From contig OZ024741.1 of NCBI GenBank assembly GCA_964016885.1, positions 49,662,001 through 49,726,000 on the forward strand: 64,000 nucleotides of DNA. The letters run 5' to 3'. The stretch is from Eledone cirrhosa. Lineage: Eukaryota. Both the position numbers and the translations under genes were made by a program. The notes beneath the pieces are model-generated. The model worked only from the letters and a program-made list of their open reading frames with translations. It did no database searches and was not told the DNA's origin. Of this stretch, positions 264-28,296 are shown in pieces (position 1 is the first letter of the stretch; the number at the start of each line of letters is the position of its first letter).

Positions 264-650
264 ATCATCATCATCATCATGACCGTTTTACGTCTGTTCT
301 TCCACACTAGCATGGGTTAGACGGGTTGTCCTGTTGTGGGCAGTGTCCAGTCGGCTGACCTTGTCTTGCTCATACGGGAACTGATTCTACGGCTGGATGC
401 CCTTCCTAACACCAACCTCATTTACAGTGAGTGCTGGGTGCTTTTTTGCCGTGGCACCTCCACAACCACTTTGCAGTGGAATGATAGGGACCCCAGTCCC
501 TATCATCTCATTTCTACAGCTGAGTAAACTGGAGCAATGTGAAATAAAGTGTCTTGCTCAAGGAAACAACACATCACCCGGTCTGAGAATTGAACTCACA
601 ACCTTTCGATTGCAAGCCCAATGCTCTAACCACTAAGCCATGCGTCTTCA
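264..650 (-). mobile_element. tRNA-derived CORE-type SINE ending in the RTE family A 3' tail and (ATG)n
   Basis: Minus strand has A/B-box-like TGGCTTAGTGG and GAGTTCAATTC, then CORE-like TTCCTTGAGCAAGACACTTTATTTC. The 3' part matches the 3' UTR of the LINE at 30140-30438. Confidence 0.8.
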
Positions 651-835
651 TATACTAGAATTTTCCAACACGCTGATACGTATGTGTATTTGTGTGCGTA
701 TGTGCATATGCATACATTTTTATGTATGAGTGTATAACTATAAACACGCAAACACAGACACACTTACAAAAATACATTCACACAAATACACACATACACT
801 TACAGCGTAGCAAAAGGAACGTCAGCTGCTGTTTT

Positions 836-1107: not shown

Positions 1108-1416
1108 CACTTCTGCTTTTGTGTGGTTTATATGTATATGAAGAAGTATCATCATCATATTATGTCTACTTCTGCAGATGTGAGGTTTATATGTATATGA
1201 AGGTGTATCATCGTGTAATGTCTACTTCTGCTTATATAAAGCTTATATGTATATGAGGGTGTATTGTCATCATTTTATGTCTACTTCTGCTTTTCTGGGG
1301 CTTATATATGAGTGTCTATCATCATCATTTTATGTCTACTTCTGCAGATATGAGGCTTATATGTATATGAGGGTATATCATCATCATTGTATGTCTACTT
1401 CTTCATATGTAAGGCT
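1108..1416. repeat. Minisatellite, ~54-60 bp unit, about 6 copies; last unit resumes at ~4800
   Basis: Recurring gtctacttctgc..gaggcttatatgtatatgagggtgtatcatcatcatt. Confidence 0.85.
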
Positions 1417-1429
1417 TATATATATATAT

Positions 1430-4400
1430 ATCATCATCATCATCACCGTTTTACGTCTGTTCTTCCACGCTAGCATGGGTTAGACGGGTTGTCCTGTTGT
1501 GGGCAGTGTCTGGTCGGCTGACCATGCCTTGCTCATACAGGAACTGATTTGGCTTGATTTCTACAGCTGGATGCCCTTCCTAACACCAACCTATTTTACA
1601 GTGAGTGCTGGGTGCTTTTTCGTGGCGCCTACACGTCCACTTTACAGTGTGGGCTGGGTGCTTTTTTGCCGTGGCACCTCCACGACCACCTTGCGGTGGG
1701 GGGAGTGGGGGCATATTGTCTATATGCTTCAGCTTGTACCCATGGGAGGTCGGGTACTCTGTATTACTGCGTGACGCCAGAAGTCACGGTCGTGTGTCAT
1801 TGCCTTTGAGAGGTGTAATTGGGTAAGGTCGGCTTTTATCACCTCATCCCAGGTCATCTTGGGTCTCCCCACTCCGCGGTTTCTATCAACTTCTAGTGCT
1901 CTGCACCTTTTTATGCAGCTGTCATCCTTCATACGCATCACATGTCCATACCAGCGCAACCGCCTCTCCTGCACACAGCATTTAATTCCTCTTATGCTCA
2001 GTCTCTCTCTCAATTCATTTATGCTTTGTCGTTCACGTATATTACTGTTACACATCCATCGGAGCATGCAGGCTTCATTTCTCTCTAATCTATGTAAGTC
2101 TTCCACCTTCAGCGCCCAGGTCTCACTACCATGCAACTTTGCTGTTCGGATACACGCATCATACAGTCTGCCTTTCATTCTGAGGGAGAAGCCTTTTGCA
2201 GCTAGCAGTGGTAGTAGTTCCCTAAACTTCTTCCATCCCGTTCTTACCCTAGTTATTGTACTTTCTGAACACCCACCTCCTCCCAGAGATTGGTGGTACT
2301 TGTTTCCTGTGGCTGTTTGCTGCTTGCTGTCTCATCACAGCTGCTGCATATGAAGCCTACATTCTTAATTAAGCTTCCTGAGATCCCGCTACATCTCTTG
2401 TGTACCCATTGTTTGCATTTGGGGCAGAGAATGGAGTTCCTACCTACACCTTTCCTACATACACCTTTCCTACATACTGAGCAAGGCCATTTCCCTGAGG
2501 GGATCTGGGTTCTGTTTTCTCGTCTACTTACAAGGACCTTAGTCTTTGTCATGTTAACTTTGAGACCCTTTCTTTCTAGTCCCTGCTTCCAAGTTTGGAA
2601 TTTATTCTCTAGTTCTACCATAGATTCAGCTATGAATGCCATGTCATCAGCATACAGGAGTTCCCATGGGCATCCGGTCTTAAACTCCTCCGTTATTGCC
2701 TGCAGGACTATGATGAACAGGAGGGGGCTAAGAACAGAGCCCTGGTGGACCCCAACCTGTACGCTAAATTCCTCGCTATACTCATTGCTAATCCTAACTT
2801 TGCTGACTGCTCCCCTATACATGGCTTGTACCGCTTTCACAAGCCATTCATCTACTCCTAGTTTTCTAAGAGCCCATCAGATTACAGCACGTGGAACTCT
2901 GTCAAAGGCTTTCTCAAGGTCGACAAATGCCAAGTAGAGTGGCTTACTTTTAGCTAGGTACTTTTCCTGTAATTGCCTCACAAGGAAGAGGGCATCAGTG
3001 GTGCCTCTTCCTGGTACAAACCCAAATTGCATCTCGTCTATTTCCACCCGGTCCCTAATCAACTGTGCTATAACTCTTTCTGTTACTTTCATGACCTGGT
3101 CCATCAACTTTATACCTCTATAGTTTCCTCTATCTAGTGCATCGCCTTTACCTTTGTAGCAGTTGACAATGATGCTACTGCACCAATCTTTTGGTATGAC
3201 ACCTTCTAGTATTACCTGGTTAACAATACGTGTGGTTATAGTGTGACCTACAGACCCAGATGCCTTCAGCATCTCAGCAGCTATACTCGATGGACCGGTT
3301 GCCTTCCCCATCTTCATATCTTTGATTGCCTTACTTACTACGTTGCTGCTGACTTGTACTGCTGGCCCCTCTATAGGGTCTACTTGGGGTAGGGTCTCTT
3401 CTTCCCATGCATTCTCCTCATTTAGTAATCTATCATAATGACTCTTCCATGCATCTTTCTTCTCAGCACTTGTGAGGGCAAGCTCACCTTTATCATTCCG
3501 GATACACTTCTCTCCAATGACATCACAACTATCTCTGACACACTGCCTCGCAATCTTGAATACCTCCTGTTTCTGGTCCTGACGTTGCAAAAACATGCTT
3601 GAATTTTCTATCCTCTGCTTCCCTCCTAGCTAAGTATACTTGTCACCTAGCTTCCCTCTTGGTCTCTATGTAATGTAACCTGCTCCCCCCATTCTTCCAT
3701 TCTTTCCATGTCTGTCTCTTGGTCTTAACTGCCTCATCTACCTTATTGTTCCACCACCAAGTCACTCTCCTCCTGCTTGAGGTCTTACTCCAGCCACAGA
3801 CCTCATCCGTCGCCTCTAGTAAATTATTTTTTAGGAACTCCCAGTTCTCTTCTACATTAAATATCTGTATCTGTTCTTCTTTACTGTCATATGCGTTGAG
3901 TAAAATATCTTTAAATCTGTTACTGGTTGAGGGGACTTTCAGCTTCCAGATCTTTCTTCTCCAGGTTGGCCTCTGTTTCCAGGTTCGTCTAGTTCTGACT
4001 GAGGTCGCTGACAACTAAGCTATGTTGAGATGTACATTCCTCACTAGGGAAGGCTTTTGTGTTTACGACCGTCCATCTGTCACGTCCTCTGATGAGGATA
4101 AAATCTATCTAACTGGAGTGCTCCCCTGATCTATAGGTGATCAGGTGGTTGTCGGGTTTTTTAAAGTTTGTGTTACATATTGACAAGTCATTGGCCACTC
4201 AGAATTCTAGAAGTCTGAATCCTTCCTCATTTCTTGTGCCAACCCCATGGCCTCCATGTACTCTATTGAAGCCGTCGCAGTGTTTACCTACGTTCCCGTT
4301 AAAATCTCCTGCGATGATTAGGAAGTCATTGTCGTCTGTTAGAGCAGTAGTGTGCATTAGGGACTCGTAAAACCTATCCTTAAGTTCGTCTGGCAGCCCC

Positions 4401-4789
4401 GATTGGGGTGCATAAGCTGATATTATTGTGGTAATTGTTTTATTCAGGACTAGTCTGAGTTTAATGATTCTTGCATTTACCCTGTACACTGAGATTACTT
4501 TATCTACCCACTTGTCAGCTAGTAGTATACCTACACCACTCATCCCATCGTCATTTCCCACCCAGAAAAATTTGTAGCACCAACTTTTTCCTACCAGGAC
4601 TCTAGCAGACTCTCCTCTCCATCTAGTCTCTTGCACACAGCATACATCAATTTCCTTTCGCTCTAGCATTTCTACGATTTCTCCTGCTCTTCCTTTCATT
4701 GAGCCTACATTGATGGTACCAACTCGGAGTTTTGGGCATTTGTCGTCACTCGTAGGGAAGGGTCTCTGGGTTGGCGCTTCACATGGGTG
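1430..4789 (-). mobile_element. RTE-clade LINE family A, near-complete ORF (APE endonuclease + RT + PHD finger), disabled
   Basis: APE motifs GTINVGSM, CVQETRW and AGDFNG (4199-4780). RT motifs [32 protein letters not shown] and LLYADD. Stop at 2877 and several frameshifts. (ATG)n tail at 1430-1445. Confidence 0.95.
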
Positions 4790-4812
4790 TATATATATAT
4801 ATATATGAGGTG

Positions 4813-5030
4813 TATCATCATCATTGGTTTCCTTGCTTGTATGGGTTGGGTAGGTCATTATGGCTTAATACTAGTCAGGTTGGGAGTGGCCTTATTTTGC
4901 TCATTCATTCCATTTTGGAGTTGACTTCTACAGCTGGATGCCTCTCCTAATATCAACCACTTTATAAGGTGTACTGGATGTATTTTATCATGGCACCAGC
5001 ACTACCACTTTACAGAGTGTACTGATGTGA
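4813..5030 (-). mobile_element. Older RTE-type 3' tail element (SINE/LINE end)
   Basis: GGCATCCAGCTGTAGAA, CAACCCATACAAGCAAGG and (ATG)n on the minus strand. Confidence 0.6.
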
Positions 5031-18039: not shown

Positions 18040-19612
18040 TCATCATCATCGTTTAACGTCCATATTCCACGCTTGCATGGATTTGGACGGGGGTTTTCCC
18101 ACTTGATGCAAGAGTGGTTGTCTTGCTTGCATAGGACTGTCTGGCGGGTTTTCTACGGCTGGATGCCCTTCCTAACACCAACCACATTTACAGTGTGGAA
18201 CTGGGAGGTTTTTACTGTGTTACCTACACGGCCACATTACAGCGTGGACTGTGTGTTTTTTTTTGTCGTGACACCTACACGACCTCATTTGTTTCGGGCT
18301 GGATGTTGTGACACCAACATAACTTTACATTGAAAGGGGTGGTGTGGATGGGGTGGGGTAGTGGGACGGGGTGTATTTTGTTAGAGGTGCCTACTGACTG
18401 TAGTAGGTTTCACTTTGTACTTAGGTAAGGCGGGTCTTCTCTATTACTGTGTAGCGCCAAAGCTCTCGGTCCAGTGACATTGTCTTGGAGAGCTGTAAGT
18501 GTGTGAGGTCGGAATTTATCAAGTCGTCCCAGGTTTTTCTGGATCTGTCTACTCCGTGGCTACCGTCTATTTTTATTGCCCCGCACTTTTTTATACAGCT
18601 GTTGTCTTTCATGCGCATCACATGACCATACCAACGTAGTCTTCTCTCGACTAAACAACATCTGATCCCTCTTATTTCTAATTTCTCCCTTAGTACGTTT
18701 ATGCTTTGCCGTTCGCGTATATTACTATTACACATCCAGCGGAGCATGCAAGCTTCGTTCCTCTCCAGTCTGCATATATCCTCTGCCCACAATGCCCAGG
18801 TCTCACTGCCATGTAACATTGCTGTTCGTATGCAGGCATCATACAACCTGCCTTTCATTTTTAGAGAGAACCCTTTAGCGGCCAATAGTGGTATAAGCTC
18901 TCTGAACTTTTTCCATCCTGTTCTGACGCTAGCTACTGTACTTTCAGAGCACCCTCCCCCACTGCTGATTTTGTCACCTAGTTAACGGAAGCTGTCCACT
19001 ATTTCTATAGAACCCTCTGCGCAATTGAAAGAGCTAGTATTTTGTGGGCACTTGCTGCTACTTATTGCACCAGAGCACCGGCCACATGTAAAATCTATGT
19101 TCTTAGTTAGCTTACCTGTGATCCCACTACATCTTTTATGCACCCATACTTTGCATTTGGGACATAGAATGGAGTTTCTACCTACGCCTTTCCTACACAC
19201 TGAGCATGGCCATTTCCCGGAAGGGACCGGCGCCTTATTTTCTTTCCTATTAACCTTAGCCAGGTTAATTTTAAGGCATTTTGATTCTAGGCCGTGCTTC
19301 CATGTTTGGAATTTCTTCTCTAGCTCGGCCATTGATTCAGCTTTGGGCATTAGATCATCTGCGTATAGGAGTTCCCATGGGCAGCCGGTCTTGAACTCCA
19401 CTGTTATAGCCTGTAGGGCAATAATAAATAGTAGGGGGCTAAGAACAGAGCCCTGATGAACACCAACTTTTACGCTAAACTCTTCACTATATTCGTTGTT
19501 AATTCTAACCTTGCTGACTGTTTCTTTATACATGGCTTGTATAGCTCTCTCAAGCCATTCATCAACACCTAGTTTTCTAAGAGCCCACCAGATAATGGAA
19601 CGGGGGACTCTG
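18040..19612 (-). mobile_element. RTE LINE family B, copy 1 (5'-truncated)
   Basis: RT, PHD and C-terminal ORFs at 18421-19612; 3' UTR and (ATG)n tail at 18040. Confidence 0.95.
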
Positions 19613-19645
19613 TATATATATATGTATATATATATGTATATATAT

Positions 19646-19679
<34 letters not shown>

Positions 19680-19681
19680 AT

Positions 19682-21675
19682 ACGGGTAAGGCAGCTGGGC
19701 CTTCGGAAATAGTTGCTGAGATGCTGAAGGCATCTGGCACGGTGGGACACACCATGGTCACCCGGATAGTTAACCAAGTCGTACAGAATGGGGTTGTTCC
19801 GAAGGACTGGCATAGCAGCATCATCGTTAACTGTTATAACGGTAAAGGAGATGCCCTAGATAGGAGTAACTTTAGAGGCATTAAATTAATCGACCAGTTC
19901 ATGAAGGTCACGGAAAAAGTAATAGCGCAACTAATCAGAGAGAGAATTGACCTAGATGAAATGCAGTTCGGGTTTGTGTCAGGCAAAAGTACCACAGATG
20001 CTCTTTTCATTGTACGACAACTACAGGAGAAGTACCTAGCTAAAAGTAAACCCCTATACTTAGCTTTTGTCGACTTGGAGAAAGCCTTCGACAGACTCCC
20101 CCGTTCCATTATCTGGTGGGCTCTTAGAAAACTAGGTGTCGACGAATGGCTTGTGAGAGCTATACAAGCCATGTATAAAGAAACAGTCAGCAAGGTTAGA
20201 ATTAACAACGAATATAGTGAAGGGTTTAGCGTAAAAGTTGGCGTCCATCTGGGCTCTGTTCTCAGCCCCCTACTATTTATTATTGCCCTTCAGGCTATAA
20301 CAGAGGAGTTCAAGACCGGCTGCCCATGGGAACTCCTATACGCAGATGACCTAACACTCATAGCTGAATCAATGGCTGGGCTAGAGAATAAATTCCAAAC
20401 ATGGAAGCACGGCCTAGAATCAAAAGGCCTTAAAATTAACCTGGCTAAGACCAAAGTTCTAGTTTGTAGGAAAGAAAATAAGGCGGCGGTCCCTTCCGGA
20501 AAGTGGCCATGCTCAGTGTGTAGGAAAGGCGTAGGTAGAAACTCCATTTTGTGTCAGAAATGCAAAGTATGGGTGCATAAAAGATGTAGTGGGATCACAG
20601 GTAAGCTAACTAAGAACATAGATTTCACATGTGGCCATTGCTCTGGTGCAATAAGTAGCAGTAAGTGCCCACAAAATACTAGCTCTTTCAACTGCGCAGA
20701 GGGCTCTATAGAAATAGTGGACAGCTTCCGTTACCTGGGTGACAAAATCAGCAGTGGTGGAGGGTACTTTGAAAGTACGGTAGCTAGAGTCAGAACTGGA
20801 TGGAAAAAGTTCAGAGAGCTTATACCACTATTAGCAGCTAAAGGGTTCTCCCTAAAAATGAAAGGCAGGTTGTATGATGCCTGCATACGAACAGCAATGT
20901 TGCATGGCAGTGAGACCTGGGTATTGTGTGCAGAGGATATACGCAGACTAGAGAGGAACGAAGCTTGCATGCTCCGCTGGATGTGTAATAGTAATATACG
21001 GGAACGGCAAAGCATAAACGAACTAAGGAAAAAATTAGAAATAAGAGGGATCAGATGTTGTTTACTCGAGAGAACGCTACGTTGGTATGGACACGTGATG
21101 CGCATGAAAGTCGATAGCTGTATAACAAAGTGCAGGGCAATAAAGATAGACGGTAGCCACGGAATAGGCAGACCTAGAAAAACCTGCGACGAGCTGATAA
21201 ACTCCGACCTCACACGCTTACACCTCTCCAAGACAATGTCACTGGACCGAGACCTTTGGCGGTACTCAGTAATAGAGAAGACCCGCCTTACCTAAATACA
21301 TAGTAAAACCTACTACAGTCAGTAGGCATCTCTAACAAAATACACCCCGTCCCACCACCCCCACCCCATCCACACCACCCCTTCTATGTAAAGCTATGTT
21401 GGTGCCACACCATCCAGGCCGAAACAAATGAGATCGTGTAGGTGTCACGACAAAAAAACACAGTCCACGCTGTAATGTGGCCGTGTAGGCAACACGGTAA
21501 AAACCTCCCAGACCCACACTGTAAATGTGGTTGGTGTTAGGAAGGGCATCCAACTGTAGAAAACCTGCCAGACAGTCCTATGCGAGCAAGACAATCACTC
21601 TTGCCTCAAGTGGGAAACCCCCGTCCAAACCCGTGCAAGCGTGGAACACGGACTTAAATGTTGATGATGATGATG
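19682..21675 (+). mobile_element. RTE LINE family B, copy 2 (5'-truncated; RT-PHD frame open to 21295)
   Basis: TGKAAGP..FVDLEKAFD..LLYADD..CSVC..TRLT*, then UTR and (ATG)n. Confidence 0.95.
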
Positions 21676-21689
21676 TATATATATATGTG

Positions 21690-21723
<34 letters not shown>

Positions 21724-21739
21724 CATGTATATATGTATA

Positions 21740-21786
<47 letters not shown>

Positions 21787-21915
21787 GTATATGTATATAT
21801 ATGTATATATATGTATATATATGTATATGTATATATATGTATATATATGTATATATATGTATATATATGTATATGTATATATATGTATATATATGTATAT
21901 ATATGTATATGTATA

Positions 21916-21955
<40 letters not shown>

Positions 21956-21984
21956 CGTATATATATATATATGTATATATGTAT

Positions 21985-24900
21985 GCTAACTACCTCCCAA
22001 ATATCTGACAGTGACTATATAATTATTGCAGGCGACCTAAATGGTCACGTTGGACAACATTGTGACGGCTACGACGAAATCCATGGAGGCTATGGGTTTG
22101 GTACTAGAAATGAGGAGGGCTCCAGAATCCTGGAATTCTGTGATGCAAATAACCTAACTATCTGTAACACTAACTTCAAAAAACGTGACAATCACCTGAT
22201 CATCTATAGATCGGGGGAACACACAAGCCAGGTAGATTATATCCTTACCAGAAGACGTGACAGAGTGTCTGTTGTAAACACTAAATCCCTCCTCCATGAA
22301 GAATGCACCTCCCAACATTGACTGATAATTAGCGACCTCATAGTCAGGACGAGACGTACTCGACAGCAGAAGAGGACTATCCTCAGGAGAAAAATATGGA
22401 AGCTAAAGGACCCCACAGCCAGAAATAAATTTCAAAGCATATTACTTGATGCTTTCGACAGTAAGGAAGAGCAATTAGAGTCGTACAATATAGAGGGACA
22501 GTGGAAATTTCTGAAAGCAAACCTGCTGATGGCGGCAGACGAAGTCTTTGGCTGGAGCAGGCCTGTAGGCAGGAGGAGAGTAACATAGTGGTGGAACAGT
22601 AAGGTGGAGGGGTCAATTAAGGCCAAAAAGCAGGCTTGGAAAGTATGGCGGGATGGGGGAAGTAGAGTAGACTATCAAGTGGCCAGGAGGGAAGCTAGGA
22701 GACAAGTGTACTTAGCAAGAAGGGAAGCTGAGGAAAGAAAGTTCAAGCATGTTCTACAACGCGATGACCAAAAACGTGAGGTGTTCAGGATTGCTAGGCA
22801 ATGCGTCAAGGAAAACCGTGATATTATCGGGGAGAAGTGTGTACTTAACGATGATGGCATATTTGCCATCACCGACGCTGATGAGAAGGTAGCTTGGAAG
22901 TGTCACTATGAAAGGCTACTAAATGAGGAGAATAAATGGGAGAAAGACAGTCTCCCCCATATCGACCCAATAGAGGGACCAGCAGTGTTAGTCGAGGGGA
23001 GTAAAATAAGTAAGGCAATCAAGGATATGAAGACGGGTAAGGCGGCTGGGCCTTCGGAAATAGTTGCTGAGATGCTGAAGGCATCTGGCACGGTGGGACA
23101 CACCATGGTCACCCGCATAGTTAACCAAGTCGTACAGAATGGGGTTGTTCCGAAGGACTGGCATAGCAGCATCATCGTTAACTGTTATAAGGGTAAAGGA
23201 GACGCCCTAGATAGGAGTAACTATAGAGGCATTAAATTAATCGACCAGGTCATGAAGGTCGCGGAAAAAGTAATAGCGCAACTAATCAGAGAGAGAATTG
23301 ACCTAGATGAAATGCAGTTCGGCTTTGTGTCAGGCAAAAGTACCACAGACGCTCTTTTCATAGTACGACAACTACAGGAGAAGTACCTAGCTAAAGGTAA
23401 ACCCCTCTACTTAGCTTTTGTCGACTTGGAGAAAGCCTTCGATAGAGTCCCCCGCTCCATTATCTGGTGGGCTCTTAGAAAACTAGGCGTTGACGAATGG
23501 CTTGTGAGGGCTATACAAGCCATGTATAAAGAAACAGTCAGCAAGGTTAGAATTAACAACGAATATAGTGAAGAGTTTAGCGTAAAAGTTGGCGTCCATC
23601 AGGGCTCTGTTCTCAGCCCCCTACTATTTATTATTGCCCTTCAGGCTATAACAGAGGAGTTCAAGACAGGCTGCCCATGGGAACTCCTATACGCAGACGA
23701 CCTGACCCTCATAGCGGAATCAATGGCCGAGCTAGAGAAGAAATTCCAAACATGGAAGCACGGCCTAGAGTCAAAAGGACTTAAAATTAACCTGGCTAAG
23801 ACCAAAGTTCTAGTTTGTAGGAAAGAAAACAAGGCGGCGGTCCCTTCTGGGAAATGGCCGTGCTAGGTGTGTAGGAAAGGCGTAGGTAGAAACTCCATTT
23901 TATGTCCTAAATGCAAAGTATGGGTGCATAAGAGATGTAGTGGGATCACAGGTAAGCTAACTAAGAACATAGATTTTACATGTGGCCGGTGTTCTGGTGC
24001 AATAAGTAGCAGCAAGTGCCCACAAAATACTAGCTCTTTCAATTGCGCAGAGGGTTCTATAGAAATAGTGGACAGCTTCCGTTACCTGGGCGATGAAATC
24101 AGCAGTGGGGGAGGGTGCTCTGAAAGTACTGTAGCTAGAGTCAGAACTGGTTGGAAAAAGTTCAGAGAGCTTATACCACTATTAGCTGCTAAAGGGTTCT
24201 CCCTAAAAATGAAAGGCAGGTTGTACGATGCCTGCATACGAACAGCAATGCTGCATGGCAGTGAGACCTGGGCATTGTGTGCAGAGGATATACGCAGACT
24301 AGAGAGGAACGAAGCTTGTATGCTCCGCTGGATGTGTAACAGTAATATACGTGAACGGCAAAGCATAAACGAACTAAGGAAAAAATTAGAGATAAGAGGG
24401 ATCAGATGTTGTTTACTCGAGAGAAGGCTACGTTGGTATGGACACGTGATGCACATGAAAGTCGATAGCTGTATAACAAAGTGCAGGGCAATAAAGATAG
24501 ACGGTAGCCACGGAATAGGCAGACCTAGAAAAACCTGGGACGAGCTGATAAACTCCGACCTCACACACTTACACCTCTCCAAGACATTGTCACTGGACCG
24601 AGACCTTTGGCGGTACTCAGTAACAGAGAAGACCCGCCTTACCTAAATATATAGTAAAACCTACTCCAGCCAGTAGGCATCTCTAACAAAATACACCCCG
24701 TCCCACCACCACCACCCCCACCCCATCCACACCACCCCTTCTATGTAAAGTTATGTTGGTGCCGCGCCATCCAGGCCGAAACAAATGAGATCGTGTAGGT
24801 GTCACGACAAAAAAACACACAGTCCACGCTGTAATGTGGCCGTGTAGGCAACATGGTAAAAACCTCCCAGACCCACGCTGTAAATGTGGTTGGTGTTAGG

Positions 24901-25035
24901 AAGGGCATCCAACTGTAGAAAACCTGCCAGACAGTCCTATGCGAGCAAGACAATCACTCTTGCCTCAAGTGGGACTACCCCCGTCCAAACCCATGCAAGC
25001 GTGGAACACGGACGTTAAACGTTGATGATGATGAT
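21985..25035 (+). mobile_element. RTE LINE family B, copy 3 (partial APE + RT + PHD), with stops
   Basis: APE motifs AGDLNGHVG and QVDYIL; RT at 22604-23866 with stop at 23864-23866; (ATG)n tail. Confidence 0.95.
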
Positions 25036-25162
25036 ATGTATATATATGTATATGTATATATATGTATATATATGTATATGTATATATATGTATATGTATA
25101 TATATATATGTATATGTATATATAAGTATATGTATATATATATATATATATGTATATATATG

Positions 25163-25215
<53 letters not shown>

Positions 25216-25247
25216 ATATATGTATATATGTATATATATGTATATAT

Positions 25248-25943
25248 ATCATCATCATCATCATCATCAACGTTTAACGTCCGTGTTCCACGCTTGCATG
25301 GGTTTGGACGGGGGTAGTCCCACTTGTAAAATTTATGTTCTTAGTTAGCTTACCTGTGATCCCACTACATCTTTTATGCACCCATACTTTGCATTTAGGA
25401 CATAAAATGGAGTTTCTACCTACGCCTTTCCTACACACCGAGCACGACCATTTCCCAGAAGGGACCGCCGCCTTGTTTTCTTTCCTACAAACTAGAACTT
25501 TGGTCTTAGCCAGGTTAATTTTAAGTCCTTTTGACTCTAGGCCATGCTTCCATGTTTGGAATTTCTTCTCTAGCTCGGCCATTGATTCCGCTATGAGTGT
25601 CAGGTCGTCTGCGTATAGGAGTTCCCATGGGCAGCCTGTCTTGAACTCCTCTGTTATAGCCTGAAGGGCAATAATAAATAGTAGGGGGCTGAGAACAGAG
25701 CCATGATGGACGCCAACTTTTACGCTAAACTCTTCACTATATTCGTTGTTAATTCTAACCTTGCTGACTGTTTCTTTATACATGGCTTGTATAGCCCTCA
25801 CAAGCCATTCGTCAACGCCTAGTTTTCTAAGAGCCCACCAGATAATGGAGCGGGGGACTCTGTCGACGGCTTTCTCCAAGTCGACAAAAGCTAAGTAGAG
25901 GGGTTTACCTTTAGCTAGGTACTTCTCCTGTAGTTGTCTACTA
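25248..25943 (-). mobile_element. RTE LINE family B, copy 4, with ~1 kb internal deletion
   Basis: RT segment RQLQEKY..KNINFT joined directly to the terminal ~75 nt at 25326/25327. Confidence 0.9.
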
Positions 25944-27948: not shown

Positions 27949-28296
27949 ATCATCATTCATTTCATCATTTCATTTTACGTCCGCTTTTCCCTGCTTGCAA
28001 GGGTGGGACTGGAACTGATTCTGGCTTGATTTCTACAGCTGGATGCCCTTCCTAACACCAACCTTATTTACAGTGAGTGCTGGGTGCTTTTCTGCCGTGG
28101 CACCTCCACAACCACTTTGCAGTGGAATGATAGAGACCCCAGTCCCTATCATCTCATTTCTACAGCTGAGTAAACTGGAGCAATGTGAAATAAAGTCTCT
28201 TGCTCAAGGAAACAACACATCACCCGGTCTTAGAATTGAACTCACAACCTTTCGATTGCAAGCCCAATGCTCTAACCACTAAGCCATGTGCCTCCA
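27949..28296 (-). mobile_element. CORE-SINE with the same body as 264-650 but an RTE family C tail
   Basis: Near-identical head and body; tail GTCCCACCCTTGCAAGCAGGGAAAAGCGGACGTAAAATG. Confidence 0.85.

What the first reader, a model, noticed from the sequence alone, without database searches (positions are those of the whole stretch)
1108..4825. Empty-site control: a LINE split a minisatellite unit and has expanded (TA)n on both sides
Seen: sister units read aggcttatatgtatatgagggtgtatcatcatcatt, with only a short interrupted TA core. The last unit is split as aggct-(TA)7T at 1417-1431 | 3.36 kb RTE-A | (TA)8T-gaggtgtatcatcatcatt at 4790-4825. Inference: either insertion or its repair generated pure TA at both junctions, or the LINE chose the one unit whose TA had already expanded and duplicated it as a TSD. 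The first reading would make RTE activity a source of this genome's TA microsatellite load.
Basis: partly seen in the sequence, partly recalled or inferred. Interest (0 to 1): 0.72.

Follow-up and report, generated by a model that had tools for sequence, protein, structure and literature searches.

The report
LINE landed in pre-existing TA repeat
A dead jumping-gene copy splits the last unit of an old tandem repeat and has TA repeats on both sides, most likely because it landed in a TA run that had already grown there; where the empty site of its relatives can be seen they add essentially no TA, so this is an ordinary insertion and not a microsatellite factory.

Summary
The anatomy is real: a 5'-truncated, dead RTE-like LINE (1432-4789, minus strand) splits the sixth unit of a 59-bp minisatellite, with (TA)7T left and (TA)8T right. 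Sister units are a weak empty-site control: they are only 83% alike, the LINE is 1.3% from its family, one sister already has a pure TA core, and the interrupting G is missing on both sides. I built real controls from insertions into hosts whose empty state is known. At most 1 of 71 tail-side junctions and 0 of 44 5' junctions gained TA; duplications in a satellite host were 9 bp or less. The family sits directly beside pure TA in 25 of 72 unselected copies (background 1-6%), yet TA load was highest in the sampled blocks with almost no RTEs. So: target preference, not synthesis. A residual remains: 7 of 137 5' junctions carry short tandem duplications, and such copying would be invisible in pure TA. 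No empty allele of this locus was available. This scan noted the family's TA preference before, on other DNA of this genome.

The parts
1109..1416 (+). 59-bp minisatellite: five whole units and the first 20 bases of a sixth; each unit holds a TA core and a (CAT)n plus ~15-base stub like the 3' end of RTE-tailed elements
   Evidence: TRF period 59, 5.5 copies; mean pairwise identity 83%; a 20-mer of the unit matches 57 places in the fetched DNA, the 25 most common of them nearly all RTE/SINE 3' ends or the units themselves, reversed control 0; single copy in the genome search
1417..1431 (+). (TA)7T at the tail-side (3') junction; likely host-derived
   Evidence: same length in contigs of three runs of one sample
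1432..1445 (-). LINE 3' tail, (ATG)n on the element's strand, (CAT)n on +
1446..4789 (-). 5'-truncated, dead RTE-like LINE: endonuclease (4199-4786), reverse transcriptase in two pieces (2880-3629, 2256-2876) with a PHD finger, several stops, a private 55-bp deletion near 2279; lacks the first ~8 codons and the 5' UTR
   Evidence: Pfam PF03372, PF00078, PF00628; truncation; deletion and 1.27% divergence
4790..4806 (+). (TA)8T at the 5' junction; likely host run plus target duplication, a templated addition not excluded
4807..4825 (+). second half of the split sixth unit, running into the tail of an older element
4812..5030 (-). old, decayed RTE-tailed element (3' end); its junction with the host is likely what the minisatellite amplified
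   Evidence: 76% match of 4921-5019 to the young family's 3' UTR; tail at 4815-4825 read directly; no full-length match to its first 25 bases found

Best explanation
The LINE likely inserted into a pure TA run that the sixth minisatellite unit had already grown, and the two TA runs are likely the two halves of that run plus a short target duplication. Steps: (1) shown: an old unit core reads TATATGTATAT or TATATAT; (2) inferred: unit 6 lost its G, as unit 4 did, and the pure run lengthened by ordinary slippage during the long time before the insertion, to about (TA)8-16 depending on the duplication; (3) shown for the family, inferred for this copy: the endonuclease nicks in alternating TA and the 3' end in AT or GT pairs with the (AUG)n RNA tail to prime reverse transcription; (4) shown: synthesis stopped ~20 bases inside the ORF start; (5) inferred: second-strand joining duplicated a few bases (typically 0-9, a ~15-bp exact duplication is the rarer variant); (6) possible: both halves drifted in length since.
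For: Target preference: 25 of 72 unselected copies have 9 or more bases of pure TA directly at the tail and 42 of 72 within 30 bases, against 1-6% and 3-11% at random positions; 81 of 115 junctions end in AT, 16 in GT. Known empty sites, tail side: 0 of 39 independent insertions in an 18-bp satellite with an ATATA/CATA core (44 found, 5 dropped as duplicates; 15 of the 39 are this family), 0 genome-wide with two or more added units, 0 of 16 in a G-interrupted host core much like the sisters', 0 of 13 further dispersed or minisatellite hosts, 1 borderline of 3 in an (AT)5 core. 5' side: 0 of 30 satellite junctions (longest alternating run 6 bases) and 0 of 14 other hosts gained TA. The G is absent from both junctions although a duplication would keep it on at least one. 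Units differ by 17% pairwise, the LINE by 1.27% from its family. Summed flank lengths of 12 comparable copies (median 47) are not longer than simulated random insertion into 400 free TA runs (median 60; p 0.06 in the shorter direction); this locus's 32 lies at the 15th percentile.
Against: No empty allele of this locus was seen. None of the five sisters has a run near 23-32 bases, so an expansion in exactly this unit must be assumed. Most control cores are short (3-6 alternating bases); only 2-3 controls cut inside a pure run of (TA)5 or more, and one of them shows (AT)7 where the host mode is 5 (seen range of empty copies 4-7). Target deletions occur (6 of 30 satellite cases by script; L037) and could also have removed the G. 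7 of 137 5' junctions show tandem copies made at or after insertion.
Confidence: 0.66

Rival explanations
1. The tail-side run is host DNA, but part of the 5'-side (TA)8T was newly made during joining, by repeated copying of the TA target onto the cDNA end.
For: 7 of 137 5' junctions carry short tandem copies of the LINE end or the target (10-34 bp periods); in L050 the host is known and two extra 23-bp target copies are new; L044 has a TA run between the LINE end and a 4-bp apparent duplication. Extra bases and target rearrangements at 5' junctions are described for R1/R2 (PMC2718515, passages).
Against: 0 of 44 5' junctions with known empty sites gained TA. The raw 5% rate is within the 1.6-7.3% that the same test gives at random positions; it counts only because the copied unit is LINE end. 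Right run longer than left in 8 of 14 comparable copies, shorter in 5. L044 has no known empty site.
Confidence: 0.13
2. The LINE entered a short pure core, (TA)3-5, and both halves grew afterwards by ordinary slippage.
For: Unit 4 shows a short pure core exists. Tandem duplicates of one LINE stub differ in TA length (20 versus 32 bases, L185/L186), so runs drift after insertion.
Against: Needs two independent expansions from halves of 3-9 bases within the short time since insertion (1.27% divergence); satellite halves of that size never expanded (0 of 39 and 0 of 30).
Confidence: 0.12
3. Insertion or its repair synthesised pure TA at both junctions from an interrupted core, making RTEs a main source of the genome's TA load.
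For: Sisters have at most 7 pure bases, the split unit 15 and 17. One of three insertions in an (AT)5 core shows (AT)7. 24 of 67 unselected copies have TA on both sides. RTEs do add microsatellites through their own tails (PMC2887409, passages).
Against: At most 1 of 71 tail-side controls gained TA, including 0 of 16 in an interrupted core. TA bases are 2.1%, 1.7%, 5.5% and 8.1% in blocks with 11.8%, 6.7%, 0.7% and 0% RTE-like cover; 48 of 862 TA tracts touch an RTE end (four blocks only, one contains this window). 23 of 67 copies have no TA run on either side.
Confidence: 0.07

Closest known systems
RTE-clade LINEs with the Tn-TA insertion signature (Bov-B, plant RTEs, Sauria and Au-like SINEs; PMC6007223 abstract, introduction and start of methods; PMC13295347 abstract, results and section 4.1)
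   Same: Single endonuclease-RT frame, microsatellite-like 3' tail, cleavage at TA, tail repeat related to the first bases of the target.
   Different: Here many copies sit in long alternating TA arrays, duplications are short and often replaced by deletions, and the RT carries a PHD finger; the T-stretch ten bases upstream was not tested.
Lepidopteran RTEs that generate microsatellite families (PMC2887409, passages)
   Same: Each insertion brings a new short repeat, here (CAT)n, between the target copies.
   Different: That repeat is the element's own tail; the TA runs here lie outside the element and behave as target.
Drosophila R1/R2 5' junctions (PMC2718515, passages)
   Same: Microhomology, extra bases, target deletions and duplicated target at 5' junctions of truncated copies.
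   Different: R1/R2 are 28S-specific; several duplications here are reiterated 2-6 times.
RTE-2_OV of Octopus vulgaris (PMC9115989, passages)
   Same: RTE-type LINE with one ~1,100-codon ORF and a microsatellite 3' end in what looks like the same animal group (octopus is my inference from genome size and repeats and from earlier notes; no call names the species).
   Different: That element has a C2H2 finger and a 3' UTR that is mostly microsatellite; sequences were not compared.

Membership tests
RTE-clade non-LTR retrotransposon | APE endonuclease upstream of reverse transcriptase | tested here: met
   PF03372 E 2e-9, PF00078 E 3e-11 and 2e-15
RTE-clade non-LTR retrotransposon | single ORF, no ORF1 | tested here: met
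   2 of 34 long sister copies keep one frame of 1037-1041 codons; upstream lie tandem ~400-bp monomers and no shared long frame (longest 51-212 codons)
RTE-clade non-LTR retrotransposon | microsatellite-like 3' tail, frequent 5' truncation | tested here: met
   (ATG)n tail; 11,890 exact 3' ends against 1,943 candidates for the 5' part (a lower bound)
RTE-clade non-LTR retrotransposon | RT groups with reference RTE elements in a tree | not tested
   no reference RTE sequences were on hand; the atlas gave only unnamed RVT_1 clusters. The label RTE rests on anatomy and on recalled clade features
Tn-TA signature RTEs | nick at TA | tested here: met
   81 of 115 tail junctions end in AT, 16 in GT; satellite insertions at GAYAT and GGTAT
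Tn-TA signature RTEs | thymine stretch about ten bases upstream of the cut | not tested
   not counted
strict microsatellite-specific LINEs (Dong, Kibi, Waldo type; recalled) | nearly all copies inside one repeat motif | tested here: not met
   23 of 67 unselected copies have no pure TA run of 9 bases on either side; insertions in other LINE ORFs and unique-looking DNA
LINE that synthesises its flanking TA | filled junctions carry more TA than the known empty site | tested here: not met
   at most 1 of 71 tail-side and 0 of 44 5'-side junctions; long pure targets barely covered

The most novel reading that the evidence does not exclude
On pure TA targets only, the reiterative copying seen at some 5' junctions of this LINE lengthens the TA run at each insertion, so the family both seeks and enlarges its own landing pads, and the same process founds locus-specific minisatellites such as this one (unit = old target plus RTE tail stub).
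Probability: 0.18. Interest if true: 0.55.

Novelty: new member of a known kind. Interest (0 to 1): 0.2.

Why it matters
If the headline reading held, an active LINE would explain part of a 3-Gb genome's very high TA load. The controls say otherwise, which is useful: TA arrays here act as sinks for RTE insertions, and sister tandem units are unsafe as empty-site controls when the array is several times older than the insertion. The smaller live lead is de novo tandem duplication at 5' junctions.

Tried and rejected
Empty allele from public runs: only three runs hold the flank, all one sample, plus RAD-seq runs of the same species label. Contigs run unbroken over 880-1443 in all three, with a C/A difference at 1092, which suggests both haplotypes are filled (contigs drop variants, so not proof). 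The right junction drew no records at all: no test. Nested insertions at one TA-like site of the LINE itself: 0 matches, uninformative. One search was aimed at the wrong stretch (LINE interior) and gave nothing of use. L056 looked like new TA at a 5' junction; rejected because its left flank is the end of another repeat that is followed by TA at 6 loci. L242, L258, L048 and L031 looked nested in LINE hosts but the host does not continue on the other side or the 5' end was out of view; not counted. Insertions into the second TA core of the host (9 of 20 sites) and between the cores (8 of 20) were left out: the 30-base gap hides long runs in the first group and the second are not cut in TA. The first script estimate of satellite duplications mis-scored variant unit starts; corrected, where the six negative values remain rough. 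Five copies gave no panel match and were dropped (3 unselected, 2 TA-selected). No second array whose unit holds an RTE tail stub was found in about 1.7 Mb of fetched DNA, so the idea that the minisatellite was made at insertion of the older element has no parallel case.

Full report
The observation. The letters are as described. A 59-bp minisatellite (1109-1427 by TRF) ends in a unit that reads AGGCT, (TA)7T, then a (CAT)n tail and 3.34 kb of LINE on the minus strand, then (TA)8T and the rest of the unit with one base missing. Four of the five whole sisters have the core TATATGTATAT; unit 4 has pure TATATAT. The array is single-copy in the genome search.

The element. It encodes an APE endonuclease, a reverse transcriptase and a PHD finger, in broken frames. 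All 29 other copies shown continue past position 4789; 2 of 34 long copies keep one frame of about 1,040 codons that starts 24 bases upstream of this copy's end, so this copy is 5'-truncated. It is 1.27% from the column majority of 14 copies (others 1.0-1.7%) and has a private 55-bp deletion. The family has 11,890 exact 3' ends in a 3.0-Gb genome. The anatomy fits the RTE clade; no tree was built.

Why the sisters are a weak control. The units are 83% identical pairwise, several times more diverged than the LINE, so most of unit 6's history precedes the insertion. One sister lost the G without any LINE. The G is missing at both junctions, whereas a cut anywhere in the interrupted core with a duplication would leave it on at least one side; only a target deletion would remove it. 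That interruptions stabilise repeats and purity lets them grow is established knowledge (recalled; PMC4102424 seen only as a search listing).

Target preference. Of the first 75 copies on contig C1, 72 were usable. 25 of 72 have at least 9 bases of pure TA directly beside the tail and 42 of 72 within 30 bases; random positions in four blocks give 1.0-5.6% and 2.7-11.3%. Of 67 with both ends in view, 24 have TA on both sides, 14 tail side only, 6 5' side only, 23 neither. 81 of 115 junctions end in AT and 16 in GT, in phase with the tail. This is a preference, not strict specificity. Earlier notes of this scan say the same for other windows.

Real empty-site controls. (a) An 18-bp satellite with an ATATA or CATA core: 27 sites among the 100 listed of 250 overlapping matches and 13 sites from all 21 matches in the other orientation join the tail directly to the host. 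A genome-wide pattern for two or more added AT units found 0. In the fetched loci, 44 tail junctions (39 after dropping 5 duplicates; 15 of this family, the rest sister families with the same tail) had no added TA; 30 independent 5' junctions had no alternating run above 6 bases, and duplication plus microhomology was at most 9 bases, median 4, with 6 apparent deletions. (b) A dispersed repeat with a G-interrupted core much like the sisters': 16 sites, none with a TA run beyond the host's (tail side only, inserted family known for one). (c) The (AT)5 core of the same repeat: 3 of 20 sites cut inside it, giving (AT)2, a G-interrupted variant and (AT)7; empty copies run 4-7. (d) 14 copies whose host continues on both sides, found among 142 examined and read by eye from a partly cut output (L032, L035, L037, L050, L173, L178, L218, L223, L234, L240, L250, L252 and two block copies): none gained TA; duplications were mostly 1-8 bases, about 13 and about 19 in two cases, a 14-base deletion in one, and one had about 10 extra bases on the tail side. 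Totals, counting L037 once: at most 1 of 71 tail-side and 0 of 44 5'-side junctions gained TA. Limit: almost all control cores are short.

Length and load. Twelve copies with bounded pure runs on both sides have summed lengths of 18-92, median 47; simulated insertion into 400 free runs gives a median of 60 (p 0.06), so no surplus is needed. TA content is 2.1, 1.7, 5.5 and 8.1% in blocks with 11.8, 6.7, 0.7 and 0% RTE-like cover, and 48 of 862 TA tracts touch an RTE end. Four blocks are few, but the trend runs against RTEs as the main source.

What counts against me. No empty allele was available. With a typical duplication the ancestral run was 23-32 bases, far longer than any sister. 7 of 137 5' junctions hold tandem copies of the LINE end or target with periods of 10-34 bases, against 0 new ones among 142 tail sides (5 hits, all pre-existing host arrays); the same test fires at 1.6-7.3% of random positions, so the cases count only by their content. 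Such copying would be invisible in pure TA and may have added to the right-hand run.

The minisatellite itself. Each unit holds (CAT)n plus a stub like an RTE 3' end (57 matches against 0 for the reversed control), and the split unit runs into an older RTE-tailed element at about 4812-5030. The array is likely an amplified junction of an earlier insertion, so the site was hit twice. I found no second array of this make in the fetched DNA.

Literature. TA-centred insertion signatures of RTE LINEs are published (PMC6007223, PMC13295347; sections named under Closest known systems), as are tail-borne microsatellites (PMC2887409) and extra bases at 5' junctions (PMC2718515). Five paper searches listed no paper on TA-array preference of cephalopod RTEs; I read only the passages stated and no supplements, which may bear on this.

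Verdict. A real split unit, an ordinary cause: a TA-preferring RTE-like LINE in a TA run that was likely already long. Interest 0.2.

Noticed in passing
L047, L213, L214 (5' of the ORF in long copies): The 5' region of long copies is built of tandem ~400-bp monomers (periods 405 and 395), in two sequence types (L047/L048/L054/L068 versus L213/L214/L220/L231), recalling mouse L1 promoter monomers and 5' switching.
   Followed up: partly
L050, L217, L225, L244, L270, L280, L063 (5' junctions); also L034, L040, L059 by eye: Short tandem arrays made of the LINE end or the target, up to six copies; in L050 the known host shows two 23-bp copies are new.
   Followed up: partly
window 2256-2876 (-): PHD finger just after the RT catalytic region; noted before by this scan.
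   Followed up: no
G000:C1 about 7.2-9.6 Mb (L270, L271, L302-L372): An 18-bp satellite holds dozens of RTE-type insertions at two phases of the unit, with a strong strand bias (248 versus 2 and 21 versus 0 raw matches).
   Followed up: partly
L042, L195, L170, L036 flanks: Inverted repeats beside or around insertions (L042: left and right flanks are reverse complements across a central TA run); may be a foldback element or fold-back synthesis.
   Followed up: no
window 18040-25939: Several copies of a second family (74-78% identical to the focal one) lie head to head and tail to tail, separated by interrupted TA tracts.
   Followed up: no
window 265-660: A short element with the same tail and 3' UTR joined to a SINE-like head; the same join recurs at 28008-28124 and in many loci.
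   Followed up: no
B0 and many loci, e.g. L058, L059, L065, L188: Very short RTE stubs (30-45 bases) that end at ...GCAT and run into TA, often followed by a younger insertion: truncation at AT microhomology and repeated use of one site.
   Followed up: no
L048, L258: Two copies have the tail joined to the same spot of an opposite-strand LINE fragment, without the host continuing on the far side; unexplained (hot spot or inversion).
   Followed up: no
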